Assembly: GCA_017431625.1 (NCBI GenBank)
Contig: JAFRKQ010000021.1
Coordinates: forward strand, 13,324 to 77,323
Reading direction: 5' to 3'
Length of the DNA: 64,000 bases
From: a bacterium
GTDB taxonomy: Bacteria; Patescibacteriota; Microgenomatia; UBA1400; PJMF01
In this document: positions 3,838 through 57,627 of the stretch, in pieces
Position numbering within the stretch: position 1 is the stretch's first letter
How the letters are laid out: every line of letters starts with the position of its first letter
Translations under genes and position numbers: made by a program
The notes under the pieces: model-generated
Seen by the model: only the letters and a program-made list of their open reading frames with translations
Database searches by the model: none
What the model was told of the DNA's origin: nothing

Positions 3838-3858
3838 GAGAGAGAGAGAGAGAGAGAG
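3838..3858. repeat. (GA)10 dinucleotide microsatellite, 25 nt upstream of the large glycosyltransferase ORF
   Basis: gagagagagagagagagagag flanked by tcgag on both sides. Confidence 0.95.
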
Positions 3859-8999: not shown

Positions 9000-10279
9000 T
9001 GAAAAAACCTCCTGCAGTAATCATGGCTGGTGGCAAAGGAACACGAATCGCAGCGATAAACGCAACTGTGCCTAAACCAATGATAGAGATTGCTGACAAA
9101 CCAATCTTGCAATATGAGTTGGAAGTGCTGTCGCGACAAGGCTATCGTGATGTTACTATTGTTACGGGACATCTCGGCCATGCAATCCAAGAATATTTTG
9201 GTGACGGCAGCAGTTTTGATTTGCAAATTAACTATCTGCACGAAAAAGAACCTTTAGGCACAGCGGGTGCGCTTTATTGGTTAAAAGGTAAAGTCTCTAC
9301 CGATTTCTTGTTGCTTAATGCGGATATTATTTTTGATGTCGATCTGGATCGTTTTTACCGTTATCACCAAGCACAAAAAACGACAGCGACGATTTTGACC
9401 CATCCTAACGCTCATCCCTATGACAGTGCAATTATTGCTGCAGACAAAAATAACATTGCAACTGCTTGGTTACATAAAGAAGACACACGACTCTGGTATC
9501 GCAACCGCGTCAATGCTGGGTTGCACTTTTTATCGCCTTCTGTTTTCGCGAGCTATAAAACTCTAGAAAAAAAAGACTTGGATCGAGATATTCTCAAACC
9601 ATTAATTGAAACCCACCAACTAAGTGTCTATGACTCTCCAGAATACGTCAAAGATATGGGTACGCCTGATCGCTATGAAAATGTAATCAAAGATCTACGC
9701 GATGGCTTAGTAGCAGCAAGAAATCTCAATCGGCGACAAAAAGCAATCTTTTTGGATCGTGACGGCACTTTAAATAAAGATGCTGGCTTTTTGACAAATA
9801 TTGACCAGCTGGAATTAATTCCTGGAGCGAGCGAAGCAGTAAAGTTAATTAATGATAGCGGTTACTTAGCAATTGTCGTCACCAATCAACCAGCAATAGC
9901 GCGTGGAGAATTAACTATTGCACAGTTGGATTTGATTCATCAAAAATTGGAAACTTTATTGGGGCAAGATGGCGCTTATCTTGACGCTATTTATTATTGC
10001 CCACATCATCCAGATAAAGGTTTTTCTGGAGAACGACCAGAATATAAAATTGAGTGTGAGTGTCGCAAACCAAAGCCAGGAATGCTGCTGCAAGCAGCTA
10101 GACATTTTAATATTGATTTGTCATCATCTTGGATGATTGGTGATAGTATTAAAGATATTGAAGCCGGAAAGGCAGTCAATTGTTACACTGCACTTTTGAG
10201 TAAAGAGCAAGCGAATATACAGCCAGATTTGTCGGCACGCGATTTATTGTCAGCAGTCAAAAAGATATTGGACAAATAG
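8999..10279 (+). CDS. Bifunctional heptose-1-phosphate nucleotidyltransferase (HddC-like) fused to D,D-heptose 1,7-bisphosphate phosphatase (GmhB, HAD family)
   Basis: N-terminal MAGGKGTRIA...GTAGALY nucleotidyltransferase. C-terminal AIFLDRDGTLN (HAD motif I) plus the Zn-finger signature CPHHPD...CECRKPKPGML typical of GmhB. Confidence 0.8.
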   Translation: MKKPPAVIMAGGKGTRIAAINATVPKPMIEIADKPILQYELEVLSRQGYRDVTIVTGHLGHAIQEYFGDGSSFDLQINYLHEKEPLGTAGALYWLKGKVSTDFLLLNADIIFDVDLDRFYRYHQAQKTTATILTHPNAHPYDSAIIAADKNNIATAWLHKEDTRLWYRNRVNAGLHFLSPSVFASYKTLEKKDLDRDILKPLIETHQLSVYDSPEYVKDMGTPDRYENVIKDLRDGLVAARNLNRRQKAIFLDRDGTLNKDAGFLTNIDQLELIPGASEAVKLINDSGYLAIVVTNQPAIARGELTIAQLDLIHQKLETLLGQDGAYLDAIYYCPHHPDKGFSGERPEYKIECECRKPKPGMLLQAARHFNIDLSSSWMIGDSIKDIEAGKAVNCYTALLSKEQANIQPDLSARDLLSAVKKILDK

Positions 10280-14548: not shown

Positions 14549-15799
14549 ATGCTCGAAATCAAACGTGACTACTATCTGCGCCAACTGATCGCCCAGCGTG
14601 GCTCTAGTTTCATCAAAATCATTACTGGCTTGCGCCGTGCCGGCAAATCCTACTTGCTCGATCCAATTTTTCGCCAATTCTTACTTCAAGATGGCGTCGC
14701 GCCGGATCATATCATTCACCTCAATTTGGAAGAGTTTGAAAACCGCTGCTTGCTTGACCCCTCCGCATTATTCACTTTTGTCAAAAAACAAATCGCCGAT
14801 AGTCAAACTTATTACGTGCTCCTCGATGAAATCCAACTTGTGCCCGGTTTCGAGTCCATTCTCTCCAGTTTTCTCCACCTAGACAATCTCGACGTTTACG
14901 TGACTGGCAGTAACTCACGTTTCTTGTCTTCAGACGTCATCACTCAATTTCGCGGCCGTGGCACCCAAATTCACCTGTATCCACTCAGCTTTGGCGAAAT
15001 TTATGCCGCCTTAGGCGGTGATAAATACGAGCTCTGGGAGCGTTATTACCGTTACGGTGGCTTGCCGCAAGTGGTCCAGCAGCCCGATGACCAAGCCCGG
15101 ATCTCCTTTTTAGAAGCACAAAAAGACAATGTTTATCTCAATGACTTAATAGAACGTTATCGTATCCGCAATAGTGACAGTCTGGGTATCCTCAGTAGTG
15201 TCATCGCTTCAGACGTGGGTGCGCTCACCAACCCCCACAAACTCGAGCGCACCTTCAAAAGCAAAATTGGTGTCGACCTAAGCTACCACAAAATCGAGGA
15301 TTATTTAGAAAAACTCCAAAACGCTTTTTTAATCGAAAAATCTAAACGTTTTGACGTCAAAGGCAAACGTTATATTGATACTCCGGTAAAATACTACTTT
15401 ACTGATCCCGGCATTCGCAACGCTTTCGTTGATTTCCGCCAAACAGAAGAATCTCATCTGATGGAAAATATTATCTATAATGAACTCCGCCGCCGCGGAT
15501 TCAAAGTCGATGTCGGCACGGTCGAAACCAGAGGGGAAAATGGCACTCGCCAACAATTAGAGGTGGATTTTGTCGCGAGAAAGGCCGATAATACATATTA
15601 TATTCAATCAGCCCTCACGATCGGTGATAGTGCCAAAAGATACCAAGAATCACGCTCGCTAGATCACATTAATGATCACTTCAGCAAGATCATCATCGCC
15701 AAAGATACTTTTGCTCCCGGCCACGAGCGCAACGGCATTGCTACCATCGGTCTTTTTGGCTTTTTACTCGATGACAAAATCCTAGATAAATATCAATAG
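14549..15799 (+). CDS. AAA+ ATPase of the COG1373 / AAA_14 + DUF4143 family (paralog 1)
   Basis: Walker A GLRRAGKSYLL. Walker B YVLLDEIQ. The length and C-terminal half are consistent with DUF4143-type proteins. ATG at 14549 with TTATAAT 7 nt upstream. Confidence 0.7.
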   Translation: MLEIKRDYYLRQLIAQRGSSFIKIITGLRRAGKSYLLDPIFRQFLLQDGVAPDHIIHLNLEEFENRCLLDPSALFTFVKKQIADSQTYYVLLDEIQLVPGFESILSSFLHLDNLDVYVTGSNSRFLSSDVITQFRGRGTQIHLYPLSFGEIYAALGGDKYELWERYYRYGGLPQVVQQPDDQARISFLEAQKDNVYLNDLIERYRIRNSDSLGILSSVIASDVGALTNPHKLERTFKSKIGVDLSYHKIEDYLEKLQNAFLIEKSKRFDVKGKRYIDTPVKYYFTDPGIRNAFVDFRQTEESHLMENIIYNELRRRGFKVDVGTVETRGENGTRQQLEVDFVARKADNTYYIQSALTIGDSAKRYQESRSLDHINDHFSKIIIAKDTFAPGHERNGIATIGLFGFLLDDKILDKYQ

Positions 15800-16049: not shown

Positions 16050-16140
16050 AACCCCACATTTCGTGAAAAAACAGCCAAAATTAACTTTACATTTCGTGAT
16101 ATTTTGCCAAAAATTAAGCTTACATTTCGTGAAAAAACAC
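16050..16140. repeat. R2 array A: three tandem 33-bp units with core TTACATTTCGTGA, immediately upstream of a TTGACA -35 element
   Basis: ACATTTCGTG at 16056, 16089 and 16122 (period exactly 33 bp). Inter-core sequence is semi-conserved (GCCAAAAATTAA). TTGACA at 16141. Confidence 0.85.
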
Positions 16141-16192
16141 TTGACAATTATTCTAATAGTGATCTAATCACTAAGAAAGGTTGAAAACTATT

Positions 16193-17545
16193 ATGAAAAG
16201 GCTTATCTACGATCAGCTGCTTGAGTGGAAAAACACTGATCAAGGTCGGCACGCTGTATTAATTGAAGGCGCGCGACGTGTTGGCAAAAGTTACATTACC
16301 AATGATTTTGGCAATGACAATTACGCTTCTTACCTCACAATCGACTTTTCGGCCACTACCGATGAAATCCGTGATCTTTTTTATAACTATCTTGATCACC
16401 TTGACGATTTTTTTCACCTGCTGACCAATTATTATCAAGTTAAACTTTTTCATCGCCAGTCACTGATTATTTTTGATGAAGTTCAACATTTTCCTCGTGC
16501 CCGCGAGGCCATAAAGCGCCTTGTTGCTGACGGACGCTATGATTACATCGAAACTGGCTCCTTGATTTCCATCAAACAAAACGTCAAAGACATCCTCATA
16601 CCGTCTGAAGAAAGAAAACTAACTATGAGGCCCATGAATTTTCAAGAATTTTGCTTGGCGACCAATAATCAAATGCTTTGGGAATATATCTGCGATTGTT
16701 TCGCACAAAAAAAATCTCTGACACCACCAATGCATCGACGTGCCATGAATGTTTTTCGCCAATACCTAATTGTTGGTGGCCTGCCTCAAGCAGTAGCTGC
16801 TTTTATTAAATCTCAAGATTATACCCTAGTAGACCACGAAAAAAGAGCTATTCTTGATCTTTATCGCAATGATATTAGCAAATTTAGCGATTCAATTCGT
16901 TTTAAGGTAGAAAAAATTTTTGACGATATTCCCTCTCAACTTCAGCGACATGAAAAAAAATTTAATTTGGCCGACATTGATTACAATGCTCGCTTGCGAG
17001 AATATGACGATGCCTTTTATTGGTTGCTTGATGCAGGTTTGATCAATATTGCTTATAATACCACCGAACCAAATTTGGGTCTCAATCTTGCAAAAGATGA
17101 CCGGTATTTCAAGTGTTATCTGTTTGATACAGGTTTACTTTTAGCTATGACTTTTAATGAAAAAGAAATTGCCCGCGAAGAAATATACAAAAAGATTCTT
17201 TTCAACAAACTCGAATTTAACCAAGGCATGATTATGGAAAACCTTATCGCCCAAATGTTACGCTCAAGCGGACATCATCTTTTCTTTTATGTCAAACATG
17301 ATCGTGGTGATAATAATGAAAACATGGAGGTTGATTTTCTTTTGTCTAAAAATGTTATCACCAATAAGCACAATATTATCCCGATCGAGGTCAAAACTGG
17401 TGTTAGATACACTTACAAATCACTGCGCAAATTCTCTCAAAAATATCAGCAATTTGTCACCAAACCAATTATTATTCACCAAAATGATTTGCAAATTGAC
17501 AATGGCATTCTCTATTTGCCCGCTTACATGGCCGAGTTGCTTTAA
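16193..17545 (+). CDS. AAA+ ATPase of the COG1373 / AAA_14 + DUF4143 family (paralog 2)
   Basis: Walker A GARRVGKSYIT. Walker B IIFDEVQ. SD-like AAGAAAGG 12 nt before the ATG at 16193. The ORF track starts at TTG 16181. Confidence 0.7.
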   Translation: MKRLIYDQLLEWKNTDQGRHAVLIEGARRVGKSYITNDFGNDNYASYLTIDFSATTDEIRDLFYNYLDHLDDFFHLLTNYYQVKLFHRQSLIIFDEVQHFPRAREAIKRLVADGRYDYIETGSLISIKQNVKDILIPSEERKLTMRPMNFQEFCLATNNQMLWEYICDCFAQKKSLTPPMHRRAMNVFRQYLIVGGLPQAVAAFIKSQDYTLVDHEKRAILDLYRNDISKFSDSIRFKVEKIFDDIPSQLQRHEKKFNLADIDYNARLREYDDAFYWLLDAGLINIAYNTTEPNLGLNLAKDDRYFKCYLFDTGLLLAMTFNEKEIAREEIYKKILFNKLEFNQGMIMENLIAQMLRSSGHHLFFYVKHDRGDNNENMEVDFLLSKNVITNKHNIIPIEVKTGVRYTYKSLRKFSQKYQQFVTKPIIIHQNDLQIDNGILYLPAYMAELL

Positions 17546-17554
17546 TTGATCACT

Positions 17555-17650
17555 AACTCTACATTTCGTGAAAAAACAGCCAAAATTAACTTTACATTTC
17601 GTGTGAATTTACTCAAAATTAATCTTGCATTTAGTGAGAAATACTGTAGT
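17555..17650. repeat. R2 array B: three tandem 33-bp units (ACATTTCGTG x2, GCATTTAGTG), direct orientation relative to array A
   Basis: Cores at 17561, 17594 and 17627. Begins 16 nt after the ATPase-2 stop. The first 50 nt are nearly identical to array A. Confidence 0.85.
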
Positions 17651-17799: not shown

Positions 17800-18395
17800 A
17801 TATTATGAAGCTCCCCGACCTAACGGTCGGGGTTTCTTATCCCATTTCAAACCTTGATCTCGTTCGCTCGAGCAAGCTCGCTCACTCAAACAAGGTTTGC
17901 CCTGAATCCTTTTTGCCCTGATCCTCAATGTACCTCTTTATTATCGCTTCATTATTTCCAATGGTTGTCACAAAATACCCGTCAGACCAAATTCCATCTG
18001 TTCCCCAGTATATCTGTTTTAGCATGGGGAATTTTCGCTTGATCTCCTTCGACGTATTCGATTTAATAATGCCTACAACTTTCCCAACACTCATTGTTGG
18101 CGAAATCGAAACTAAATAGTGTATGTGGTCTTGATCATGATTCACCTTTAAAAATTTAATTTGAGGATAATGACTAGTTATTTCCGCCAACTTTAATTCA
18201 AAATAAGCGAAAATTCCATCATTGATAATTTTACGTCGGTATTTTGTGACCGTGACTAAATGGTACTCACACTCATAAACGCAATGTGACAGATGTGTTA
18301 GTGGCATCAAGATATTATACCACGGTTCCAGAGTGCAAAAACAGATTCAGGGTGCCAGCACGGCCTTACGGCCGGAATTATGGCATGGCGATATA
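17800..18395 (-). mobile_element. IS200/IS605-family insertion sequence (tnpA only) with subterminal hairpins
   Basis: Hairpins CCCCGACC-TAAC-GGTCGGGG (17811-17832) and CGGCC-TTAC-GGCCG (18353-18366) bracket the tnpA ORF. Confidence 0.7.
17882..18310 (-). CDS. tnpA: IS200-like Y1 (HUH) transposase TnpA
   Basis: 142 aa. Has the HVH-type motif (DHIHYLVSI) and the C-terminal Y...K region typical of IS200 TnpA. Confidence 0.8.
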   Translation of the reverse strand: MMPLTHLSHCVYECEYHLVTVTKYRRKIINDGIFAYFELKLAEITSHYPQIKFLKVNHDQDHIHYLVSISPTMSVGKVVGIIKSNTSKEIKRKFPMLKQIYWGTDGIWSDGYFVTTIGNNEAIIKRYIEDQGKKDSGQTLFE

Positions 18396-21301: not shown

Positions 21302-21397
21302 AATATTTTTTCCTTTCTAGCTATCACACCACCATTATAATAGTATATTGTTGTTTAGTCAACGTGCTATTAACAACGTGGTTAATTGATATTAGCA

Positions 21398-21441
21398 ATT
21401 CTAGCAGAAGACTGCTAATTTGTCAAGAGGCAATTTCCAGG
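21398..21441 (-). promoter_or_regulatory. dnaK promoter: conserved element GCCTGGAAATTGCCTC, then TTGACA, N16, TAGAAT
   Basis: Reverse complement of 21419-21441 reads GCCTGGAAATTGCCTCTTGACAA. The same 23-mer occurs at 45564-45586 and, split, at 53543-53595. Confidence 0.6.
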
Positions 21442-21480
21442 CAAAAAGTCAATTCCTCACAAATTGCCTGCCCCAAAACC

Positions 21481-21496
21481 ACACTTGTGTGGTATA
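21481..21496 (+). promoter_or_regulatory. secD promoter, extended -10 (TTGTGTGGTATACT)
   Basis: TGTGGTATACT lies 16 nt upstream of the ATG at 21513. Confidence 0.5.
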
Positions 21497-21512
21497 CTCA
21501 GGCGTATTGATT

Positions 21513-29308: not shown

Positions 29309-30370
29309 TTAGTATTGCGGCAAAAAGATTTTGGAATTTTCTGGTGTCACCCAAATTTCTGTGTAACCTTGTTCCACCATAATGCGCACGGCTTTGCGCA
29401 CCATATTTTCTAGTGTTCGCTCCAGTGTCCGGATACCCATGTCATAACCCAAAGGACGAATAATTTTGTGCCAGAGTGATTCATCAATGTGAATTTGTTC
29501 TGCTTTGATACCGGCATTGGAATAGAGTCGTGGCAAAATATAATTTTTGGCGATCATTTCTTTTTCGTAATCAGTATAAGAAGGCATAGAAATTTTTTCC
29601 ATCCGGTCCATCACGGCGGTCGCAATTTTGGTGGTATTATTGGCCGTTGCCAAAAAAATGGCTTGCGACAAATCCACCGGATAGTCAATATAGGTATCAG
29701 TAAACGCTTGATTCTGCGCCGGATCCAAAAGTTCCACCAGCACACCCATAATATCCATCAGGGCACTTTCGGCAACACGATCAATTTCATCAAGCAAAAA
29801 AATCGGATTGCGCACCCCCGACTCACACAAACCTTTGATAATTTTTCCTGGCTCTGCTTCCAGCTGGAGACGTGACCAACCACGTAACTCTCGTGCCGAG
29901 CCCATACCGCCAAAAGGAATCCGGACAATATAGCGACCCAAAGCCTCAGCTAGCGAATAAGCAAAAGTGGTCTTGCCCGTACCTACCAAACCCACCAAAA
30001 GCAAAATTGGCGCTCGATAGGCTTTGCCCGGAGCTTGTTGGTTTTGCAATTTCAAAATGGAGACATATTCCAAGAAGCGATTTTTCACTTCCATCATGCC
30101 GTAGTGATGTGAGTCAAAAATGCGCCTGGTTTCATTGATATCGAGCCGGTCACGCGTGACTTTATTCCATGGGATCCGCACCAGCCAGTCGATGTAGTGA
30201 GTCACCATCTCGTATTTTTCGTCATAATTACCAAAATCCATTGACCGCTCGAGACTGACAATATCACGTTCGGCTTTTTTTTGCACCTCCAAAGGCAACT
30301 TCGCGGCTTGCACTCGCGCTTTGAGTTCATTGATTTCCTGGACCACGTATTGATTAATCTTCTCTGACAT
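29309..30370 (-). CDS. Lon-like AAA+ ATPase module lacking the Lon N-domain and the C-terminal protease domain
   Basis: YIDWLVRIPWN...HYGMMEVKNRFLEY...GLVGTGKTT...GGMGSARELRGWSRLQLEAEPGKIIKG...IFLLDEIDR aligns with the LonA linker + AAA+ + alpha-helical subdomain. The ORF stops where the protease domain would begin. TATAAT promoter at compl. 30377-30392. Confidence 0.75.
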   Translation of the reverse strand: MSEKINQYVVQEINELKARVQAAKLPLEVQKKAERDIVSLERSMDFGNYDEKYEMVTHYIDWLVRIPWNKVTRDRLDINETRRIFDSHHYGMMEVKNRFLEYVSILKLQNQQAPGKAYRAPILLLVGLVGTGKTTFAYSLAEALGRYIVRIPFGGMGSARELRGWSRLQLEAEPGKIIKGLCESGVRNPIFLLDEIDRVAESALMDIMGVLVELLDPAQNQAFTDTYIDYPVDLSQAIFLATANNTTKIATAVMDRMEKISMPSYTDYEKEMIAKNYILPRLYSNAGIKAEQIHIDESLWHKIIRPLGYDMGIRTLERTLENMVRKAVRIMVEQGYTEIWVTPENSKIFLPQY

Positions 30371-30415
30371 GACTGGTATATTATATCCTATTTGCCGGCA
30401 AAATGCGAGGCAATT

Positions 30416-30958
30416 TTACTTGGCCAAACACTCCTCAATTGTGGGCACTATCGCTTGAGGATCAATGGTTGGCTCAAAACGAGCCACTACTTGTCCGTGT
30501 CTGTCGACAACAAATTTGGTAAAATTCCACTTAATATCCGGGCTTTCTTTCCAGTGAGGATCCATTTTGGCGACAATAGGAATTAAAATTTTACCGGCAA
30601 GATTGAAGCCACCAAAACCTTGTTGACTTTTAAGATAAGCATAAAGCGGTGCTTGACGCTCACCATTGACCTCAATTTTGGCTAGTTGATCAAAAGAGGT
30701 ACGGTATTTGAGAGTGCAAAACTCATGAATCTCATCATTACTGCCCGGAGCTTGATGGCCAAATTGATCACAAGGAAAATCCAAAATCTCCAAACCCTGA
30801 TCATGATAACGCTCATAAAGAGCCTGTAAACCCTTATATTGTGGCGTAAAACCACAGCCGGTAGCGGTATTAACAATCAAGAGCACTTTGCCTGCCAAAT
30901 CATGCAAATCAAGCTGACTACCATCACGCTTGTCCACCTTAAAATCATAAATGGTCAT
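30416..30958 (-). CDS. Glutathione peroxidase-family thiol peroxidase
   Basis: VNTATGCGFT catalytic Cys motif. FPCDQFGHQ. KWNFTKF(V/L)VDR. Confidence 0.85.
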   Translation of the reverse strand: MTIYDFKVDKRDGSQLDLHDLAGKVLLIVNTATGCGFTPQYKGLQALYERYHDQGLEILDFPCDQFGHQAPGSNDEIHEFCTLKYRTSFDQLAKIEVNGERQAPLYAYLKSQQGFGGFNLAGKILIPIVAKMDPHWKESPDIKWNFTKFVVDRHGQVVARFEPTIDPQAIVPTIEECLAK

Positions 30959-33439: not shown

Positions 33440-34750
33440 TCATGATTGAAGCGTATTAATCACTTGCGCCAGGTTGAGGCTTTCCTGAGCGCCAGTGACG
33501 AGATTTTTGAGGCTTAGCTTTTTTTGCGCCAGCTCATCATCGCCTATAATTAGGGCATAAGCTACCCCCAGATCAGCCGCGTGTTTGAGGGCCTTTTTCA
33601 TCCCTCCCGCCTCCAAATAAACTTCAGTAGCAATCCCACTTTGCCGCAAGGCATTCACAATATCGTGCAAGTGGTCAAGCTGTGCGGTCAGTGGCACCAC
33701 TACAACTTGACTGATGGTTTTTTGTTCCAAAGACACTAAACCCGCCGCCAACGCTTGCGCCAAAAGGCGTGTCAGCCCAATTGAACACCCCACTCCTGGC
33801 ATTTTGGTTTTGCCATAATTACCCACCAAATTGTCATAGCGACCACCAGAACAAATCGAACCCAAAGACACGTGATCCAGCAAGATCGTTTCGTATATCA
33901 TACCGGTATAATAATCCAAGCCCCGAATAATCCCCATATTGAATTGATACTCCGCCGGATCCAACCGCAAGGCCTCTAAGTGTTGACTTAAGCGGTGCAA
34001 TTCTTCCAGCCCTTCGTTGAAGAGCGCATTATCAACGTCCAGGCGCAAAAGCAACTGCGAGACCTGATGAAAATTACCGTGAATTTGAGCAAATTTGGTA
34101 ATTTTTCGGATTTCAAAAGTGTCCAGACGTAAAAGTCTTAATTCCTCTTGCAATTTCTTGGGACCGATTTTGTCTGCATCATCCAAAAGCTGAATTATCG
34201 CCTTCTGATCCATGACCTTGAGCGCTGACAAAAAGCCCATCACAATTTTGCGATTGCTAATTTGTAATTGAAAACTGCCCAGCTCCAAGCGCTTCACGGT
34301 CTGGGCGGCCAGCGCCAAAATCTCAGCGTCAGCACTCGACGACAAACTGCCACGGCCAATAATGTCAGCATCGGCTTGATAAAATTCACGAAAACGGCCC
34401 ATTTGCGCCCGTTCACCACGAAAAACAGGGCCAATTGCTTGACGACGAAAAGGAAAAGCCAACTCATTTTGGTGTAAGGCCACAAAACGAGCCAAAGGCA
34501 CCGTCAGATCAAAACGCAAGGCCAATTGCGTCTCACCCTTAGCAAAGCGATAGATTTGCTTGCCCGTGGACGCGCCGGCTTTGGCCATCAAGACCTCGGC
34601 GCGCTCGATTGTCGGTGTTTCCAGTGGCGTATAGCCAAAAAGTCCATAACTTTCTCTCACTGTTTGCTTCCAGCGCTCAAAAATCAACTGGGCGGCTGGT
34701 GGCCACTCCGGCATTCCAGATAAAGGTTGTAGATTTAGCTTTTCACTCAT
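33440..34750 (-). CDS. hisS: Histidine--tRNA ligase
   Basis: Class II aaRS motifs (FRGERAQMGRFREFYQ, GGRYD) and a C-terminal anticodon-binding domain. Start set to MSEKLNLQ (compl. 34748-34750) because the longer ORF would overlap the tRNA-Gly gene. Confidence 0.9.
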   Translation of the reverse strand: MSEKLNLQPLSGMPEWPPAAQLIFERWKQTVRESYGLFGYTPLETPTIERAEVLMAKAGASTGKQIYRFAKGETQLALRFDLTVPLARFVALHQNELAFPFRRQAIGPVFRGERAQMGRFREFYQADADIIGRGSLSSSADAEILALAAQTVKRLELGSFQLQISNRKIVMGFLSALKVMDQKAIIQLLDDADKIGPKKLQEELRLLRLDTFEIRKITKFAQIHGNFHQVSQLLLRLDVDNALFNEGLEELHRLSQHLEALRLDPAEYQFNMGIIRGLDYYTGMIYETILLDHVSLGSICSGGRYDNLVGNYGKTKMPGVGCSIGLTRLLAQALAAGLVSLEQKTISQVVVVPLTAQLDHLHDIVNALRQSGIATEVYLEAGGMKKALKHAADLGVAYALIIGDDELAQKKLSLKNLVTGAQESLNLAQVINTLQS

Positions 34751-34810
34751 GCCGCTTATTATATCACAAGCACACAAAAAATCGACCGTTGTTTGCTTGT
34801 CGCAAATGGG

Positions 34811-34827
34811 CAATTGTGTGGTATAAT
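34811..34827 (+). promoter_or_regulatory. Promoter for tRNA-Gly (TTGTGTGGTATAAT)
   Basis: Canonical extended -10, 16 nt upstream of the tRNA 5' end. Confidence 0.55.
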
Positions 34828-34843
34828 AAGAGCTGTTCTTTAT

Positions 34844-34914
34844 GCAGGATTGGTGCATCGGTAGCACGCTAGCTTCCCAAGCTGGAGAGGTCAGTCCGAC
34901 TCTGATATCCTGCT
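34844..34914 (+). tRNA. tRNA-Gly (anticodon CCC), atypical T-loop
   Basis: Acceptor GCAGGAT/ATCCTGC. D-arm GTGC-ATCGGTA-GCAC. Anticodon arm CTAGC-TTCCCAA-GCTGG (U33, A37). T-arm GTCAG-TCCGACT-CTGAT with C at position 55. Discriminator U. Has its own promoter and terminator. Confidence 0.65.
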
Positions 34915-34931
34915 CGGCATACCTATCACTT

Positions 34932-34968
34932 TCGCCCAAGGGAAACCTTGGGCGAATTTTTTTATTTT
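34932..34968 (+). terminator. Rho-independent terminator after tRNA-Gly
   Basis: CGCCCAAGG-GAAA-CCTTGGGCG followed by TTTTTTTATTTT. Confidence 0.8.
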
Positions 34969-34981
34969 GGGTGCGCCCCGT

Positions 34982-35000
34982 GTGAGTACATTGTACTCAC
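34982..35000. repeat. 19-nt perfect palindrome GTGAGTACATTGTACTCAC
   Basis: A near-identical copy (GTCAGTACAATGTACTCAC) is at 38302-38320. Both are followed by an A-run. Confidence 0.8.
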
Positions 35001-35087
35001 AAAAATAACTTGATTTATCAATAAAAATTTGTAAATACGATGTGATTACAAAAATATCTTGGTATAGCAATAAATTGAGGAATACCA

Positions 35088-36833: not shown

Positions 36834-38243
36834 TTACCTTTCTGTTGCTGTTAGCTTGAGGCCGAGTTCTGCCAACTGAGCCGGAGTAGCTGGTGCTGGT
36901 GCTTCCATAATCGCAGTCTTACCCGAACCACTAGTGGGGAAGGCCACCACTTCTTTGACTGACTCCTCACCGGCCAAAACCATCGCCAGCCGGTCAATAC
37001 CCAAAGCAATCCCACCATGAGGTGGCGTCCCATAATCAAAAGCCTCGAGCATATGACCCACGCTCGCTTCAATCTCGTCGTGATTATAACCCATGATCTT
37101 ATAAGTAGCCTCCAAAATCTCACGGGTATGAGCGCGCAGACTGCCGCCACCAACTTCAAAACCATTGCAAACCAGATCATACTGCGCCGTAATAATGTTT
37201 TCCAGATTGCGTCCCGCCAAATGATCTTCAAGATGCTCAGGTAGGGGAGCCGAGAAAGGATTATGAGTAAAAGTCCAGCCACTCTTGCCGTCAATGACTT
37301 CAGCTGCGTCGGCCTTATCCACTTTTTTGAAAAAAGGGAAACCCACTACCCAGGCAAAAGCCAGCGTGCCATCTTTTTTCTCCTTGTCGGTGCGCAAATC
37401 AAACCGATCGGCACCAAATTGTTCCATTGCATCTTTATATTGATATACCGGGAAATTTTCCTTTTGGAGTTTGCAACCCATGGTCTTGAGCACTTTTTTG
37501 ACCACTTTTTCCACCAAATCCATCACGTCATGAATATCCTCAGCATAGCTCATCTCCAAATCAAGCTGCGTTAGCTCCAAAAGCCGATCAGCCCGCAAAT
37601 CCTCATCACGAAAACAGCGCGCTACCTGAAAATAACGTTCAAAACCAGCTACCATTAGCAATTGTTTGTATTGTTGGGGACTTTGAGGTAAGGCGTAAAA
37701 ATCTCCTGGGTGTAGGCGAGAGGGGACAAGAAAATCACGCGCTCCTTCCTTGGTAGCTTTGGACAAAATCGGTGTTTCAATCTCAATAAAATCCTCCGCA
37801 TACAGACTTTCCCGCAACAAACGCACCAAATCATGACGAAGGCGAATATTTTTGGCCAATCGCTGCCGGCGCAAATCCAAATAACGATAGCGCAAGCGAA
37901 CGTCCTCGCTCATCTCCCGTCCATCACCGTCCACCAGAATCGGCAAATCCTTGGCCATTGACAAAACCTCATAGCTGTGAACATCAACTTCCACACTACC
38001 TGTGGGCAAATTGGGATTAACTTGACTCTCTGGTCTCGCTTTCACTTCACCTGTCACCTTGATCACTGATTCCGTCTTAAGTTCAGAGAGTTTTTTGTAA
38101 CCAACAATCTGCACTTTGCCCGAGCGATCACGCAAATCGATAAAAGTTACCTTACCGTGATCACGTTTGGTGGCCACAAAACCTTCAAGGGTGACAATCT
38201 CACCCACCTTATCCACTGTGTCTTTAATTAATGTTCTTGACAT
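36834..38243 (-). CDS. aspS: Aspartate--tRNA ligase
   Basis: N-terminal OB fold (FIDLRDRSGKVQIV). Class II motifs FRDEDLRADR, GGGSLR, GIDRLAMVL. Confidence 0.92.
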   Translation of the reverse strand: MSRTLIKDTVDKVGEIVTLEGFVATKRDHGKVTFIDLRDRSGKVQIVGYKKLSELKTESVIKVTGEVKARPESQVNPNLPTGSVEVDVHSYEVLSMAKDLPILVDGDGREMSEDVRLRYRYLDLRRQRLAKNIRLRHDLVRLLRESLYAEDFIEIETPILSKATKEGARDFLVPSRLHPGDFYALPQSPQQYKQLLMVAGFERYFQVARCFRDEDLRADRLLELTQLDLEMSYAEDIHDVMDLVEKVVKKVLKTMGCKLQKENFPVYQYKDAMEQFGADRFDLRTDKEKKDGTLAFAWVVGFPFFKKVDKADAAEVIDGKSGWTFTHNPFSAPLPEHLEDHLAGRNLENIITAQYDLVCNGFEVGGGSLRAHTREILEATYKIMGYNHDEIEASVGHMLEAFDYGTPPHGGIALGIDRLAMVLAGEESVKEVVAFPTSGSGKTAIMEAPAPATPAQLAELGLKLTATER

Positions 38244-38301: not shown

Positions 38302-38320
38302 TGAGTCTTTTGTCAGTACA
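38302..38320. repeat. Second copy of the GAGTACA-W-TGTACTC palindrome
   Basis: GTCAGTACAATGTACTCAC between the MFS gene end and the aspS start. Confidence 0.75.
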
Positions 38321-38367
38321 ATGTACTCACAAAAAAACACCTCTATATCAAGATATTTTTGTGAGCC

Positions 38368-42224: not shown

Positions 42225-42275
42225 ATCTATTTTTTGTTCACATTTTGACTACATTTTTGTATACATTTTGTACTC
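42225..42275 (-). promoter_or_regulatory. Phased direct repeats AAAATGT(A/G) (11/11/22-bp spacing) upstream of the ABC ATPase gene. Candidate OmpR-family response-regulator operator
   Basis: Minus strand reads gtacAAAATGTAtacAAAAATGTAgtcAAAATGTGAac...AAATGTGAAc. Confidence 0.4.
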
Positions 42276-42276
42276 A

Positions 42277-43601: not shown

Positions 43602-44798
43602 CTACTGCTGTTTGGGTTGATTGTCTTTTTGCCTTTCACTTCGTCTATTATAACATAGTTGAGTTAATTTATTGTCAAAAATGCGCCGCCACCAGTAATA
43701 CTGATAGGGAAGTGACAAGCGAAAAACTGTCTGTTCGGGCCGACCACTAACGAGCACCAAGCGCCCCCGCAACAGTCGCGTCAAGTCTTGAGCCATAGCC
43801 AAGCCCAGACCACTACCGATCTGACCTTGGATTTCCTTTTTAGTGGCCCGATAAAAGCGCTGCCAAATCAATTGTTTTTCTGACTCATCAATGCCTGGGC
43901 CTTGATTGACTACCTCAATGTGCACCCACTCAGTCTCACACCGGACACTCACCCTCACGGAAGAATAAATCTTGGCATATTTACCAGCATTGTCCAGCAA
44001 AAGTTCCACAATTTGCCCCAAAAACTCCGCCTTAGTCTCCAGCATTACATCCTTTGGTGATTCAAGGATAAAGTCTATGTGCCGATCGCGATATACTTTT
44101 TGGTAGCGTGCCAAAAGCGGCTTAAGCAGCTTAGTCACCGCCACCCTCGCGACAGGTACGTCTTTTTGACCTTGGCGCAAAGCTAACAATAGCTTAGCTA
44201 CCATATTTTGCAAGTTTTGATTCTCGCCCTTGATAGTAGCCAATCCCTCACGGACACTAGCACTCATTTTTTCACCATCAAGCAAGCTAATTTCCGTTTT
44301 GATCGTGGTGATAGGTGTCTTGAGCTCATGTGAAGCATTGGCTATAAACTCTTGCTGACTTTGCGTCATCGCTCGCACCGGCCGCAGCAACCAGCCGATA
44401 AAAAAATAACCACTGACACTGGCCACCAACCATACCAAGGTGTCAAAAATTATCAAGTGACCATAAACGCGACGATCAAAAATCACCCAATTCTTTTTCA
44501 AAGCTTGAGCAAGACTCAACGTCTCGGCTGGCGGCTCACGGTCATAAGGCTCCAGGGGTGGGACACAGGATTCTTTAACGAAATGTGCCTCTTGGTAATC
44601 ACCCGTCAATTGTCGCCGGACATTGGCCTCAAAACGCCAACGCGCTTGACGATGACCCACTACCAGCAAAGCTGAGTATCCAATAATAATCACTAATGTT
44701 ACCAAAGAAAAAATCAAACTCAACTGCAGCTGGACTCGACGAAAATTGCGCGTGAGACTCTCAAACATGCTCGGCCTCCAGTCCCAACCGATAGCCAC
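43602..44798 (-). CDS. Sensor histidine kinase
   Basis: Two TM segments, H-box ANASHELKTPIT, N and G boxes (GSGLGLAMA). Confidence 0.88.
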   Translation of the reverse strand: MAIGWDWRPSMFESLTRNFRRVQLQLSLIFSLVTLVIIIGYSALLVVGHRQARWRFEANVRRQLTGDYQEAHFVKESCVPPLEPYDREPPAETLSLAQALKKNWVIFDRRVYGHLIIFDTLVWLVASVSGYFFIGWLLRPVRAMTQSQQEFIANASHELKTPITTIKTEISLLDGEKMSASVREGLATIKGENQNLQNMVAKLLLALRQGQKDVPVARVAVTKLLKPLLARYQKVYRDRHIDFILESPKDVMLETKAEFLGQIVELLLDNAGKYAKIYSSVRVSVRCETEWVHIEVVNQGPGIDESEKQLIWQRFYRATKKEIQGQIGSGLGLAMAQDLTRLLRGRLVLVSGRPEQTVFRLSLPYQYYWWRRIFDNKLTQLCYNRRSERQKDNQPKQQ

Positions 44799-45450
44799 GA
44801 GTTTTCACTGTTTGGATCAAAGTGGGCAAATGGGGAAAAGCCTTATCAATTTTTTTGCGCAAAAAACAGATATAAGTATCCACCACCCGATCATAAACTT
44901 GAGTTTCATTTTCCCACACATGAGCCAAAAGCTCTTGCTTAGTGATAATCCAGTGTGATTTGTGCATCAAATAGGCCAGGAGTTGATATTCCTTGCGTGA
45001 CAATTGAATCACCTGCCCCGCGCGAGTCACCTGACCACTACTGGGATCCAAAATCAAATCGGCCACCTGCAAGACCGGCTGTTTTTTATCACTCACACGC
45101 CGCAAAAGCGCCTGGAGACGGGCCAAAAGTTCTTCCACCTCAAAAGGTTTGGCTAGATAATCATCCGCTCCCGAGCGCAAACCGGTCACAATTTCTGGCG
45201 TCGTGACCCTGGCGGTAAGCACCAAAATGGGCAATTTTAGCCCCCGCTCACGCACCAGTGCTAGCACCTGCAGACCGTCAATTTTGGGTAGCGTCAGATC
45301 CAAAATCATCACGTCATAATAACTATCATCCACTAGGCACAGGGCCTGCTCACCATCAAAGGCTTGATCCACCGCATAAGCGTGCCGGCGCAAAATTTTG
45401 GCCAGTGATTTGTTAAGTGGCAGCTTGTCCTCGACCAAAAGTATACGCAT
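44761..45450 (-). CDS. OmpR/PhoB-family response regulator
   Basis: Receiver domain (MRILLVEDKL, conserved D in DVMILDL) plus a C-terminal winged-helix domain (TRGYRL). Confidence 0.9.
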   Translation of the reverse strand: MRILLVEDKLPLNKSLAKILRRHAYAVDQAFDGEQALCLVDDSYYDVMILDLTLPKIDGLQVLALVRERGLKLPILVLTARVTTPEIVTGLRSGADDYLAKPFEVEELLARLQALLRRVSDKKQPVLQVADLILDPSSGQVTRAGQVIQLSRKEYQLLAYLMHKSHWIITKQELLAHVWENETQVYDRVVDTYICFLRKKIDKAFPHLPTLIQTVKTRGYRLGLEAEHV

Positions 45451-45535
45451 AACTCAATTCTACCACGACCTTGTTAAAGCATTGTCAAAACTCATATTCC
45501 GATCAGTGGTCTGTAGCCCAATTCACCTTTCTTGA

Positions 45536-45586
45536 CCTATAATTATACCACAAAAGTCTTGTTTTGTCAAGAGGCAATTTCCAGGC
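45536..45586 (-). promoter_or_regulatory. Promoter of the TCS-efflux operon: GCCTGGAAATTGCCTC, then TTGACA, N17, TGGTATAAT
   Basis: Reverse complement of 45541-45586 gives a consensus -35, a 17-bp spacer and an extended -10. Includes the conserved 23-mer. Confidence 0.65.
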
Positions 45587-53220: not shown

Positions 53221-53505
53221 TTAATTAGCCTGAGCCGACCTTTCACTCTCTATCATTTTACGGCTAAGAATAACACTCACGATATTCATAACTACAAATC
53301 CAACTACGAGCCCGATTATAGTCCAAAAGTTTTTTTTGTCAAGAGCCAAATCAAGGCAATAACCCCCGCCACCAAAAATCACTACGCAACCCAAGGCACT
53401 GATAACACTAATCCAACGTGTTTTTTTCATCAAACGACGGAAATTTGAGGCTTGATCATCAAGTGGAAGACTAGTTTGAGGATCAGGATCAGTAATACTT
53501 TTCAT
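53221..53505 (-). CDS. Small 2-TM protein, AtpZ/AtpI-like, first gene of the atp operon
   Basis: Start at MKSITD (TGTGATATAAT promoter 16 nt upstream). Basic and hydrophobic. Position is typical of atpI/atpZ. Confidence 0.5.
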   Translation of the reverse strand: MKSITDPDPQTSLPLDDQASNFRRLMKKTRWISVISALGCVVIFGGGGYCLDLALDKKNFWTIIGLVVGFVVMNIVSVILSRKMIESERSAQAN

Positions 53506-53519
53506 AATCAATATATGAC

Positions 53520-53596
53520 ATATTATATCACAAATTTTTAATTTGTCAAGAGGCAATTTACATTGGTCGATAGGCAATATTATTACTTTCCAGGCA
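53520..53596 (-). promoter_or_regulatory. atp operon promoter: conserved 23-mer (interrupted by a 27-nt partial duplication), TTGACA, N16, TATAAT
   Basis: Reverse complement gives ...AAATTGCCTCTTGACAaattaaaaatttgtgaTATAAT. The GCCTGGAAA half lies 27 nt further upstream. Confidence 0.6.
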
Positions 53597-57258: not shown

Positions 57259-57627
57259 TTTGTACATATTTTGTACTCAATAGTTACTTATACTATTATT
57301 ATATAGGTAATTTTGATAGAAAAATTGATGTTTTGATATTTTTGGATAGATTTGTGCAATTTTTTCATCTCCAAAATGGATCTAAAATAGAAGAGCCACC
57401 GCAACATCCTTGGAAGAATACCGATATGTCCAGGATAATTGCCGTGGCCCTACCTCACCGGGCAAGTCCGTATGATACCTGATTTTCACCAAAAAACAAG
57501 TGGCAATTTTCGCTGACAAGTAAACTTATAATTAACTAAACCCTGGAAGAAAAAAAATCTTATCAGTCTAAATAATTATCGTAGTTTCTGCGTCAAATTT
57601 AAACAAAAACGATCAACAAAGACCGTT

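What the first reader, a model, noticed from the sequence alone, without database searches (positions are those of the whole stretch)
21398..21441. Conserved 23-nt element GCCTGGAAATTGCCTCTTGACAA shared by the dnaK, TCS-efflux and ATP-synthase promoters
The identical 23-mer, containing a perfect TTGACA -35, occurs at 21419-21441 and 45564-45586. It also occurs at 53543-53595, where it is split by a 27-nt insertion that partially duplicates ATTGCC-T-C-GAC. Each copy has a good -10 at a 16-17 bp spacing and points into a minus-strand operon. The 16 nt upstream of the -35 (GCCTGGAAATTGCCTC) is conserved far beyond what promoter function needs. That suggests a shared activator or UP-like site co-regulating chaperone, energy and envelope-stress efflux genes. 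A related half-site (GAGGCAATTT) also lies in the Lon-like gene's promoter, near 30405.
Basis: seen in the sequence. Interest (0 to 1): 0.6.

Follow-up and report, generated by a model that had tools for sequence, protein, structure and literature searches.

The report
rrnB-P1-like upstream promoter module, multi-copy
The shared 23-mer is real and conserved, but it marks a reusable strong-promoter module found in front of many unrelated genes in this gut Patescibacteria clade, and its core nearly copies the RNA-polymerase-contacting "UP element / -35" junction of the E. coli rRNA promoter, so it is not a stress-specific regulator site.

Summary
Observation confirmed. GCCTGGAAATTGCCTCTTGACAA occurs exactly at 21442..21420 and 45586..45564 on the minus strand. 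A third, rearranged copy lies at 53595..53543. Each abuts a TTGACA-16/17-TAnAAT promoter, for dnaK, an OmpR-type TCS plus MacB efflux operon, and the ATP synthase operon.

The element is under selection. Orthologous dnaK promoters keep it exactly in two relatives and with a CC->GG change in a third (DnaK 91-93% identical), while the flanks diverge. The TCS and atp promoters keep at least the core in the closest relatives.

It does not define a stress regulon. In 157 kb of clade DNA not selected for the motif, 11 promoters carry a perfect AAATTGCCTC-TTGACA and about 9 carry degenerate versions. The downstream genes are unrelated (tRNA-Arg, TGT/TM2, a cell-wall hydrolase, hypothetical proteins).

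The core AAATTGCCTC+TTGACA matches 14 of 16 bases of E. coli rrnB P1 (AAATTTCCTCTTGTCA), which is the proximal UP subsite plus the -35. In IMG/VR, AAATT[G/T/C]CCTCTTGACAA gives 39-48 promoter-like families per variant. Controls give 0-12.

Best explanation: an RNA-polymerase-read UP-like/-35 composite that makes strong promoters. The GCCTGG hexamer at -52..-47, which occurs in either orientation, is clade-specific and unexplained. A dedicated transcription factor is not excluded.

The parts
21420..21442 (-). Copy 1 of the 23-mer: GCCTGG (21442..21437), AAATTGCCTC (21436..21427), -35 TTGACA (21426..21421), then A.
   Evidence: It is kept exactly in the orthologous dnaK promoters L195 and L196 and as AAATTGGGTC in L197.
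21392..21418 (-). CIRCE-like inverted repeat TTAGCA-N15-TGCTAA. It overlaps the spacer and the -10 TAGAAT (21403..21398) of the dnaK promoter.
   Evidence: Sequence. It is invariant in alignment A1 of five dnaK promoters. The CIRCE/HrcA assignment rests on established knowledge of that operator.
21461..21498 (+). secDF promoter. AAATTGCCTG (21461-21470) lies 22 nt upstream of the extended -10 TGTGGTATACT. There is no -35 hexamer. With copy 1 it forms a 9-nt perfect inverted repeat.
   Evidence: Orthologues carry AAACTGCCTG (L196) and ATTTTGCTTG (L195) at the same 22-nt distance (read from the sequences).
45564..45586 (-). Copy 2 of the 23-mer. It starts at the G of the TAG stop of mgsA/rarA. 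The -35 is at 45570..45565 and the -10 TATAAT at 45547..45542. It is the distal promoter of the RR-HK-HlyD-MacB operon.
   Evidence: It is conserved exactly in L204 (RR 83% identical) and absent upstream of the RR in L202 and L203.
45457..45490 (-). Proximal promoter region of the response-regulator gene: TTTTGAC-N6-TTTAAC followed by TAGAAT. It is conserved in all four relatives and is the likelier autoregulatory site of the RR.
   Evidence: sequence comparison of the window, L202, L203 and L204. The functional assignment is inference.
53543..53595 (-). Copy 3, the atp operon promoter: GCCTGGAAA (53595..53587), a decayed 21-nt duplicate (53577..53557), AAATTGCCTC (53559..53550), -35 (53549..53544). 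The -10 TATAAT lies just outside at 53527..53522. TTGCCT occurs three times at 20/21-nt spacing.
   Evidence: Orthologues: L205 has AAATTGCCTCTTGACAA without GCCTGG, L202 has ATTTTGGGTCTTGACAA, and L206 has AAATTACCCCCTTGACA.
53315..53360 (-). Internal promoter ahead of atpB, inside the atpI-like ORF. It carries a degenerate version of the module: TTGCCTtgatttgGCTC-TTGACA-16-TATAAT.
   Evidence: The orthologous site L202 +619 reads cTGCCTagatttaGCCC-TTGACA.
30380..30416 (-). Exact AAATTGCCTC (30416..30407), 21 nt upstream of TATAAT (30385..30380), with no -35. This is the promoter of a Lon-like AAA+ gene (29309-30370).

Best explanation
The 23-mer is the upstream half of a reusable, near-consensus sigma-A promoter module. 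The full module reads [GCCTGG] [AAATTGCCTC] [TTGACAA] - spacer ending TGTGn - TATAAT.

The central 10-mer sits where the promoter-proximal UP-element subsite and the -35 junction sit in E. coli rrnB P1. It is 9/10 identical to that sequence (AAATTTCCTC). The most likely mechanism is therefore direct reading by RNA polymerase. An alpha-subunit C-terminal domain would bind the narrow minor groove of the AAATT tract next to sigma region 4 on TTGACA, raising promoter strength without any gene-specific regulator. This step is inferred, not shown.

In this clade of animal-gut Patescibacteria most promoters are extended -10 only. The module is the standard way of building a -35-dependent, presumably strong promoter, and it is placed in front of many unrelated genes. 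dnaK regulation comes from the separate CIRCE operator. TCS autoregulation probably comes from a separate proximal site.

The extra GCCTGG hexamer at -52..-47 is clade-specific and conserved. It occurs in either orientation (GCCTGG, or CCAGGC plus 1 nt), and its role is not explained. It could be a shape or bending element for the second alpha-CTD, or the site of a separate factor.
For: 1. Real and non-random.

2. Fixed register. The element is always directly 5' of TTGACA with a 16-17-nt spacer, TG and a -10.

3. Purifying selection. The dnaK promoter alignment shows one conserved block from GCCTGG to the end of CIRCE, flanked by unalignable sequence, in relatives with 91-93% DnaK identity. 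The block decays at 85% identity and is gone at 80-84%. The TCS promoter keeps it at 83% RR identity. The atp promoter keeps the core at 84% AtpB identity.

4. General use rather than a regulon. In 157 kb of clade DNA not selected for the motif, 79 candidate -35/-10 sites split into two modes. Twenty match the 10-mer at 7 or more of 10 positions (11 of them perfectly), against a background probability of 0.6%. In 22 kb around dnaK of JAZQJV01 there are 5 copies, ahead of TM2/TGT, a hypothetical gene, dnaK, Hydrolase_2 and a cyclophilin-like gene. One copy lies ahead of tRNA-Arg. DHH-like and membrane-protein orthologues in different MAGs both carry it.

5. Identity with a characterised alpha-CTD site. 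The native rrnB P1 sequence CAGAAAATTATTTTAAATTTCCTCTTGTCAGG... is quoted in PMC7822876. It is present in all 5426 E. coli genomes, between murI and the 16S gene. The UP element is bound by alpha-CTD through the A/T-tract minor groove (PMC7822876). The proximal-subsite positions are critical for activity (PMC4390567).

6. Pan-bacterial preference. The exact 17-mer hits more than 114 genome loci in several phyla, almost all with a correctly spaced -10. In IMG/VR, AAATT[G|T|C]CCTCTTGACAA gives 43, 48 and 39 promoter-like families. GGGTC gives 12, GGCTC 7, CGCTC 3, CCGTC 1, and TTTAAGCCTC 0.

7. The recurrent CC<->GG swap (AAATTGGGTC in L197 dnaK, L202 atp and L202 +14987) and the orientation-insensitive GCCTGG/CCAGGC fit shape or minor-groove readout better than base-specific major-groove readout. 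This last point is inference.
Against: - The element is less A/T-rich than SELEX UP consensus sequences.
- The GCCTGG hexamer lies exactly where alpha-CTDs sit on rrnB P1 (-54..-48), yet it is G+C-rich.
- Eleven of about 20 copies are perfect 10/10 matches. That is more information than UP elements usually carry and looks more like a sequence-specific protein site.
- The nusG/rplK and several other housekeeping promoters in the window lack the element.
- 1.02 Mb from more distant Patescibacteria have no copy at all, although they presumably share a similar RNA polymerase.
- No binding or transcription data exist.
- The control k-mers that contain CpG may be depleted for unrelated reasons.
Confidence: 0.55

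Rival explanations
1. The 16-mer (or the whole 23-mer) is the operator of a dedicated, clade-specific global transcription factor. The factor binds next to or over the -35. It acts either as a class-II-type activator touching sigma region 4 or as a repressor of strong promoters, and so defines a large regulon.
For: - High information content and a bimodal match distribution.
- G/C positions conserved as strictly as A/T ones.
- The element occurs at the right distance from a -10 in two promoters that have no -35, secD and the Lon-like gene, as expected for activator-dependent promoters.
- TTGCCT repeats phased at 11 and 20/21 bp.
- An ATTTCC-N9-GGAAAT inverted repeat spans GCCTGG in several copies.
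- The element is absent from more distant Patescibacteria.
Against: - The conserved core has no dyad or clean tandem symmetry.
- Every full copy already has consensus -35, TG and -10 elements.
- The gene set is heterogeneous and includes a tRNA.
- The same 17-mer marks promoters in unrelated phyla and phages that would lack a clade-specific factor.
- The core is near-identical to a site known to be read by RNAP itself.
- The window contains no candidate regulator gene other than the RR.
Confidence: 0.25
2. The motif is the binding site of the OmpR-family response regulator encoded just downstream of copy 2 (44761-45450). That regulator autoregulates its operon and also controls dnaK and atp, as the first reader's 'envelope-stress co-regulation' idea would require.
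For: - GCCT...GCCT and TTGCCT...TTGCCT direct repeats have 11-bp periodicity and abut the -35, as in Pho-box-type sites.
- Copy 2 heads the RR operon.
- RR orthologues exist in motif-bearing MAGs.
Against: - In JAZQJV01 and CAYQLH01 the RR operon has no copy of the motif, although both genomes use the motif widely.
- All four RR genes share a different conserved element just upstream, TTTTGAC-N5/6-TTTAAC, a better autoregulation candidate.
- The upstream half-repeat is not conserved as TTGCCT in relatives, and is inverted in several copies.
- The RR-HK-HlyD-MacB layout is typical of locally acting systems (established knowledge).
Confidence: 0.05
3. The shared sequence is simply the footprint of promoter-cassette propagation (duplication, recombination or gene conversion of a 'mobile promoter'). 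The 16 nt upstream of the -35 have no function of their own.
For: - Near-identical 50-60-nt promoter cassettes, including the spacer (TTGACAAaa.gac.ta.a.TGTGaTATAATATAGG), sit in front of non-homologous genes within and between MAGs.
- There is a tandem duplication in copy 3.
- Two copies lie just downstream of tRNA-Ser genes.
Against: - Orthologous promoters keep the 16-mer while adjacent non-coding DNA is unalignable. This implies selection on those bases.
- In the window the identity stops exactly at the 23-mer, and the spacers and -10 boxes differ.
- No terminal repeats, target-site duplications or transposase linkage were found.
- Propagation may explain how the copies arose, but it does not explain why they are maintained.
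Confidence: 0.08

Closest known systems
UP element, promoter-proximal subsite, of E. coli rrnB P1 (alpha-CTD site adjoining the -35; Ross/Estrem/Gourse)
   Same: - Same position and orientation relative to the -35.
- AAATTGCCT versus AAATTTCCT over -46..-38 in rrnB numbering (8/9). AAATTGCCTCTTGACA versus AAATTTCCTCTTGTCA (14/16).
- An A-tract of the kind alpha-CTD reads through the minor groove (PMC7822876).
- Associated with very strong promoters.
- Also works conceptually with extended -10 promoters that lack a -35, such as the secD and Lon-like cases here.
   Different: - No A/T-rich distal subsite. A conserved G+C-rich GCCTGG lies at -52..-47 instead.
- Much higher sequence invariance among copies.
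- Used on dozens of mRNA promoters rather than mainly on stable-RNA promoters.
- Alpha-CTD binding has not been tested.
Putative mobile promoters / promoter propagation in prokaryotes (Matus-Garcia, Nijveen & van Passel 2012; cited from memory, not retrieved here)
   Same: Near-identical promoter sequences lie upstream of non-homologous genes in one genome.
   Different: Here the copies are conserved at orthologous positions across species with about 70% nucleotide identity in neighbouring genes. In the window, identity is confined to the functional -52..-29 block. There is no link to mobile elements.
Pho-box-type operators of OmpR/PhoB-family response regulators
   Same: Short direct repeats (GCCT/TTGCCT) with 11-bp periodicity abut the -35, and one copy heads a TCS operon.
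   Different: - The -35 is intact and consensus.
- The upstream repeat is not conserved, or is inverted, in relatives.
- RR operons of two relatives lack the motif.
Class II activator sites and alpha-CTD co-factor elements (e.g. CRP at -41.5; the Spx/alpha-CTD -44 element of Bacillus; cited from memory)
   Same: A sequence element centred around -44 and adjoining sigma region 4.
   Different: No dyad symmetry. The core promoters are already consensus. No cognate factor has been identified.

Membership tests
UP element (proximal subsite) | Lies immediately upstream of the -35 hexamer (about -38 to -46), in fixed register and orientation. | tested here: met
   All full copies have AAATTGCCTC directly 5' of TTGACA. 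The divergent secD copy is oriented toward its own -10.
UP element (proximal subsite) | A/T-tract sequence resembling the selected consensus (AAAAAARNR, from memory) or a characterised natural subsite. | tested here: inconclusive
   8/9 identical to the natural rrnB P1 subsite AAATTTCCT, but only about 6/9 to the SELEX consensus. It contains GCC.
UP element (proximal subsite) | Bound by the RNAP alpha-CTD and stimulates transcription without accessory factors. | not testable with these tools
   Needs in vitro transcription or footprinting with wild-type and alpha-CTD-deleted RNAP.
UP element (full, with distal subsite) | A/T-rich distal subsite at about -47 to -57. | tested here: not met
   The positions are occupied by GCCTGG or CCAGGC. 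A T-tract is often present one helical turn further upstream.
Transcription-factor regulon operator (stress co-regulation) | The site is restricted to a functionally coherent gene set and conserved with it. | tested here: not met
   The downstream genes are unrelated: tRNA-Arg, TGT/TM2, Hydrolase_2, cyclophilin-like, DHH-like and hypothetical genes.
OmpR/PhoB-family response-regulator box | Tandem direct repeats with 10-11-bp periodicity that are conserved, plus autoregulatory linkage to the RR operon. | tested here: not met
   The upstream half-repeat is not conserved, or is inverted. The motif is absent from the RR operons of L202 and L203.
Mobile promoter / repeat element | Copies have sharp element boundaries, terminal repeats or target duplications, or linkage to mobility genes. 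| tested here: not met
   No such features were found around the copies. The conservation boundaries coincide with functional promoter parts.
CIRCE/HrcA operator | TTAGCACTC-N9-GAGTGCTAA-type inverted repeat at heat-shock promoters. | tested here: met
   This applies only to dnaK. TTAGCA-N15-TGCTAA at 21418..21392 is invariant in five dnaK promoters. It is separate from the 23-mer and absent from copies 2 and 3.

The most novel reading that the evidence does not exclude
The clade-specific GCCTGG/CCAGGC hexamer at -52..-47 (a CCWGG core), together with the unusually invariant AAATTGCCTC, is read by something other than a standard alpha-CTD. Candidates are a lineage-specific general transcription factor, a diverged alpha-CTD or sigma extension, or a methylation-sensitive switch. 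On the last possibility, a C5-cytosine methylase gene sits beside dnaK in two relatives. Any of these would give these reduced-genome, epibiotic-type bacteria a bipartite, high-information 'promoter code' that controls a large share of their -35-dependent transcription.
Probability: 0.2. Interest if true: 0.65.

Novelty: new variant of a known kind. Interest (0 to 1): 0.4.

Why it matters
Promoter architecture in Patescibacteria (CPR) is almost uncharted, and these organisms have very few regulators.

This analysis shows three things:
- One clade builds its -35-dependent promoters from a single, nearly invariant module.
- The core of that module matches the rrnB P1 proximal UP/-35 junction.
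- The same junction (AAATTnCCTC-TTGACA) is preferred at promoters in several bacterial phyla and in phage contigs of widely differing G+C content.

Together these points argue for deep conservation of the alpha-CTD/sigma-4 contact surface.

The practical value is a ready-made strong promoter for genetic tools in CPR bacteria, and a simple sequence tag for calling transcription units in their MAGs.

The result also corrects a tempting over-interpretation. Sharing this element does not mean that dnaK, atp and the efflux TCS are co-regulated.

Tried and rejected
1. Stable-RNA promoter idea. Rfam and ARAGORN on 16 motif-bearing loci found one tRNA-Arg about 250 nt downstream of a copy and two tRNA-Ser just upstream of copies. 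Most copies precede protein genes.

2. Restriction-modification or avoidance signature of CCWGG. CCTGG/CCAGG and GCCTGG occur in the window at about the Markov expectation.

3. The same phenomenon in Chloroflexota. The many Anaerolineae hits to the 17-mer are mostly a few orthologous promoter families (LexA-box type; tgttaccggtcacgtgaccggtaaca type). Other promoters in those loci show only a weak shift toward the motif.

4. Distant relatives. Eighty metagenome dnaK loci (946 kb, DnaK 57-79% identical) and four loci at 80-85% have no AATTGC...TTGACA or AAATTnCC..TTGAC. The dnaK promoter at 85% identity keeps a partial version.

5. Looking for rpoD or rpoA in clade loci to inspect sigma region 4 or the alpha-CTD.

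6. Literature. No paper contains AAATTGCCTCTTGACA or TTGCCTCTTGACA, and no paper on a Patescibacteria promoter motif was found.

7. Oscillospiraceae and Clostridiales hits. These are a different repeat found at contig ends (ccctgtttttgggcAAATTGCC...aggtcattacatatcaggca), probably the end of an IS or other repeat, and are unrelated to this promoter module.

Full report
**1. Observation**

The 23-mer GCCTGGAAATTGCCTCTTGACAA is present twice, exactly, on the minus strand at 21442..21420 and 45586..45564. None of 100 dinucleotide-preserving shuffles gave a match, even with 3 mismatches allowed.

A third copy has GTAAATTGCCTCTTGACA at 53561..53544 and GCCTGGAAA at 53595..53587. The 27 nt in between contain ATTGCCTatcGAC. 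The repeat finder describes this as a 21-nt tandem duplication, 53536-53556 / 53557-53577, at 76% identity. In other words, the -35 module was duplicated and the upstream copy decayed.

All three copies are followed by a 16-17-nt spacer, TG, and TAGAAT or TATAAT. Pfam confirms the downstream genes:
- DnaK.
- An OmpR-type response regulator, a histidine kinase, a HlyD-like adaptor and a MacB-type ABC transporter.
- An atpI-like gene plus the F-type ATP synthase operon.

Copy 2 begins at the G of the TAG stop of mgsA/rarA.

Three more related sites exist in the window:
- An exact AAATTGCCTC at 30416..30407, 21 nt upstream of the TATAAT of a Lon-like AAA+ gene, with no -35.
- AAATTGCCTG at 21461-21470 (+), 22 nt upstream of the extended -10 of the divergent secDF promoter, again without a -35. 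It forms a perfect 9-nt inverted repeat with copy 1.
- A degenerate version at the internal atpB promoter.

**2. Relatives and conservation**

The window comes from an NCBI MAG labelled only 'bacterium' (DnaK = MBQ6449899, contig 151 kb). Its closest sequenced relatives are Patescibacteria MAGs, some from animal-gut samples: JAZQJV01, JAFRKU01/JAFRKH01 (goat), a CAYQLH01 bin mislabelled 'Pseudomonadales', and some Logan and ENA contigs.

dnaK promoter. The orthologues in relatives with 91-93% DnaK identity keep GCCTGGAAATTGCCTCTTGACAAATTAGCAGTC.TCTGCTAGAATTGCTAAT as one conserved block. Sequence on either side cannot be aligned. One relative carries AAATTGGGTC. At 85% DnaK identity only GCCTGG...AAAATTG...GCTTGACA remains. 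At 80-84% only the -35 and the CIRCE operator remain.

TCS promoter. It keeps the full 23-mer, again directly after the mgsA stop, in the closest relative (RR 83% identical). In JAZQJV01 and CAYQLH01, where hisS lies upstream of the RR gene, there is no copy. All four RR genes share a different proximal element, TTTTGAC-N5/6-TTTAAC plus a -10.

atp promoter. It reads AAATTGCCTCTTGACAA without GCCTGG at 84% AtpB identity, ATTTTGGGTCTTGACAA in JAZQJV01, and AAATTACCCCCTTGACA in JAFRKU01.

The 16-mer is under selection.

**3. The element does not define a regulon**

A scan of one genome per species with the 17-mer AAATTGCCTCTTGACAA returned more than 114 loci. The three related MAGs hold many copies each.

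In clade DNA that was fetched through proteins rather than through the motif (157 kb), 79 candidate -35/-10 sites fall into two groups. Eleven have a perfect 10/10 upstream match, two have 9/10, three 8/10 and four 7/10. The remainder lie at background, which has a mode of 2-3 matches and P(>=7) = 0.6%.

In 22 kb around the dnaK gene of JAZQJV01, five copies precede TM2/TGT, a hypothetical gene, dnaK, a Hydrolase_2 cell-wall enzyme and a cyclophilin-like gene. Elsewhere copies precede tRNA-Arg, DHH-like phosphoesterases (orthologues in two MAGs both carry it), membrane-anchored proteins and small hypothetical genes.

The 8-mer AATTGCCT occurs 25 times in 190 kb. Twelve occurrences are followed by CTTGACAA. 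Only the two window cases (secD and the Lon-like gene) look like promoters without a -35. So the element and the -35 behave as one composite.

Other promoters in the window, including nusG/rplK, are of the extended -10 type (TGTGGTATAAT) and have neither a -35 nor the element.

**4. What the core is**

The composite AAATTGCCTC+TTGACA matches 14 of 16 bases of E. coli rrnB P1, AAATTTCCTC+TTGTCA. The native rrnB P1 sequence is printed in PMC7822876. A 63-nt version of it matches all 5426 complete E. coli genomes at 95-100% identity and lies between murI and a 16S gene.

With the -35 as reference, AAATTGCCT occupies the nine positions of the rrnB P1 proximal UP subsite (AAATTTCCT). In that promoter the UP element is bound by alpha-CTDs through the narrow minor groove of A/T tracts. 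It stimulates transcription more than 30-fold (PMC7822876). The proximal-subsite positions are critical for activity (PMC4390567).

The preference is general. Nearly all hits to the 17-mer in Chloroflexota, Clostridia, Acidobacteriota and other phyla have a correctly spaced -10. The table gives IMG/VR counts for the 17-mer with the variable part changed, after collapsing related contigs into families.

| 17-mer searched | Families | Families with a -10 |
|---|---|---|
| AAATTGCCTCTTGACAA | 50 | 43 |
| AAATTTCCTCTTGACAA | 57 | 48 |
| AAATTCCCTCTTGACAA | 45 | 39 |
| AAATTGGGTCTTGACAA | 15 | 12 |
| AAATTGGCTCTTGACAA | 11 | 7 |
| AAATTCGCTCTTGACAA | 4 | 3 |
| AAATTCCGTCTTGACAA | 4 | 1 |
| TTTAAGCCTCTTGACAA | 6 | 0 |

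The two CpG-containing controls may be low for compositional reasons. The GGG, GGC and TTTAA controls do not have that problem.

AAATTnCCTC-TTGACA is therefore a widely favoured promoter context. This argues that RNA polymerase itself (alpha-CTD plus sigma region 4) reads it.

**5. What remains specific to the clade**

First, copy number and invariance. More distant Patescibacteria (1.02 Mb examined) have no copy. Other promoters in the Chloroflexota loci show only a faint shift toward the motif.

Second, the GCCTGG hexamer at -52..-47. About two thirds of clade copies carry it in one of several forms:
- GCCTGG directly adjacent to the 10-mer.
- The reverse complement CCAGGC plus one base.
- Displaced by 11 nt.
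- Displaced by 30 nt, as in copy 3.

Among roughly 110 non-clade hits the adjacent CTGG occurs twice, which is compatible with chance.

Several copies have a T-tract one helical turn upstream of GCCTGG, which forms ATTTCC-N9-GGAAAT.

CCWGG is neither depleted nor enriched in the window. A PF00145 cytosine methylase gene lies beside dnaK in two relatives. I treat that only as a lead.

**6. Mechanism and rivals**

Most likely (about 0.55): an UP-like proximal subsite fused to a consensus -35 and read by RNAP. It yields strong, factor-independent promoters. Gene-specific control is supplied separately, by CIRCE at dnaK and probably by the proximal repeat at the RR gene.

What is shown: position, conservation, generality, and identity with a characterised alpha-CTD site. 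What is inferred: actual alpha-CTD binding, and any role for GCCTGG.

Rivals:
- A dedicated global factor (about 0.25) is favoured by the high information content, the GCCTGG hexamer and the two promoters without a -35.
- The local response regulator (about 0.05) is disfavoured by its absence from RR operons of relatives.
- Neutral promoter-cassette propagation (about 0.08) is disfavoured by the conservation of orthologous copies. It may still explain how the copies arose.

**7. Verdict**

This is a new variant of a known kind of element. Interest is moderate, because promoter architecture in Patescibacteria is uncharted and the module is a practical tool. The core mechanism, however, is the ordinary UP/-35 type.

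Noticed in passing
window 21392-21418 (-); L195, L196, L197, L198 dnaK promoters: A CIRCE-like inverted repeat TTAGCA-N15-TGCTAA overlaps the spacer and -10 of the dnaK promoter. It is invariant in five relatives. L195, L196 and L199 carry a second CIRCE-like copy nearby. A second dnaK promoter (TTGACT-17-TATAAT) lies at 21362..21334.
   Followed up: partly
window 45457-45490 (-); L202 ~9960-10000, L203 ~9940-10000, L204 ~2700-2740: A conserved TTTTGAC-N5/6-TTTAAC element plus a -10 lies immediately upstream of the OmpR-type response-regulator gene in all four relatives. It has a direct-repeat-like layout and is a candidate autoregulatory site.
   Followed up: partly
window 34981-35001, 38313-38330, 42255-42276, 57255-57279: A second shared motif occurs four times: a palindrome-like (GT)GAGTACA-n-TGTACTCAC and TGTAyACA-TGTACTCA. 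The copies lie upstream of the hisS region, a class-II aaRS gene (36834-38243) and the ABC ATPase gene, and near pgi. A similar gagtacaaaatgtgtaca is present upstream of hisS in L202.
   Followed up: no
window 16056-16132 and 17561-17600: ACATTTCGTGA occurs three times at 33-nt spacing upstream of an AAA_14/DUF4143 ATPase gene (16181-17545). The same repeat starts again just after the gene. A paralogous AAA_14/DUF4143 gene lies at 14549-15799.
   Followed up: no
window 17882-18310 (-): An IS200-like (Y1_Tnp) transposase gene lies two genes downstream of dnaK. In relatives L195 and L196 this side of dnaK instead carries a PF00145 C5-cytosine DNA methylase gene.
   Followed up: no
L206 9520-9640; L202 8330-8480: Relatives have arrays of other short repeats in intergenic regions: GCTCCACGTG(T/C)GGCC upstream of atp in JAFRKU01, and (T)GTGTGGCAT upstream of hisS in JAZQJV01.
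   Followed up: no
L197 5845-5900: A complete second copy of the module (AAAAATTGCCTCTTGACAA...TGTGGTATAATATAGG) sits about 100 nt upstream of the dnaK promoter copy, in the same orientation, with no ORF between them. It may be a tandem promoter or may drive a small RNA.
   Followed up: no
window 33440-34939 (-) versus tRNA 34844-34914 (+); window 3838-3858: The mechanical hisS ORF (499 aa, TTG start) overlaps a tRNA gene on the other strand, and orthologues are 425-445 aa, so the true start is probably downstream. Separately, a (GA)n microsatellite lies at 3838-3858, upstream of a 1370-aa multi-domain glycosyltransferase/methyltransferase gene.
   Followed up: no
L005, L033, L040, L067, L086, L093, L097, L098, L101: In Oscillospiraceae and Clostridiales MAGs the 17-mer is embedded in a longer repeat (ccctgtttttgggcAAATTGCCTCTTGACAAaggtcattacatatcaggca) that lies at contig ends. 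It is probably the terminus of an insertion sequence or other repeat that breaks assemblies.
   Followed up: no
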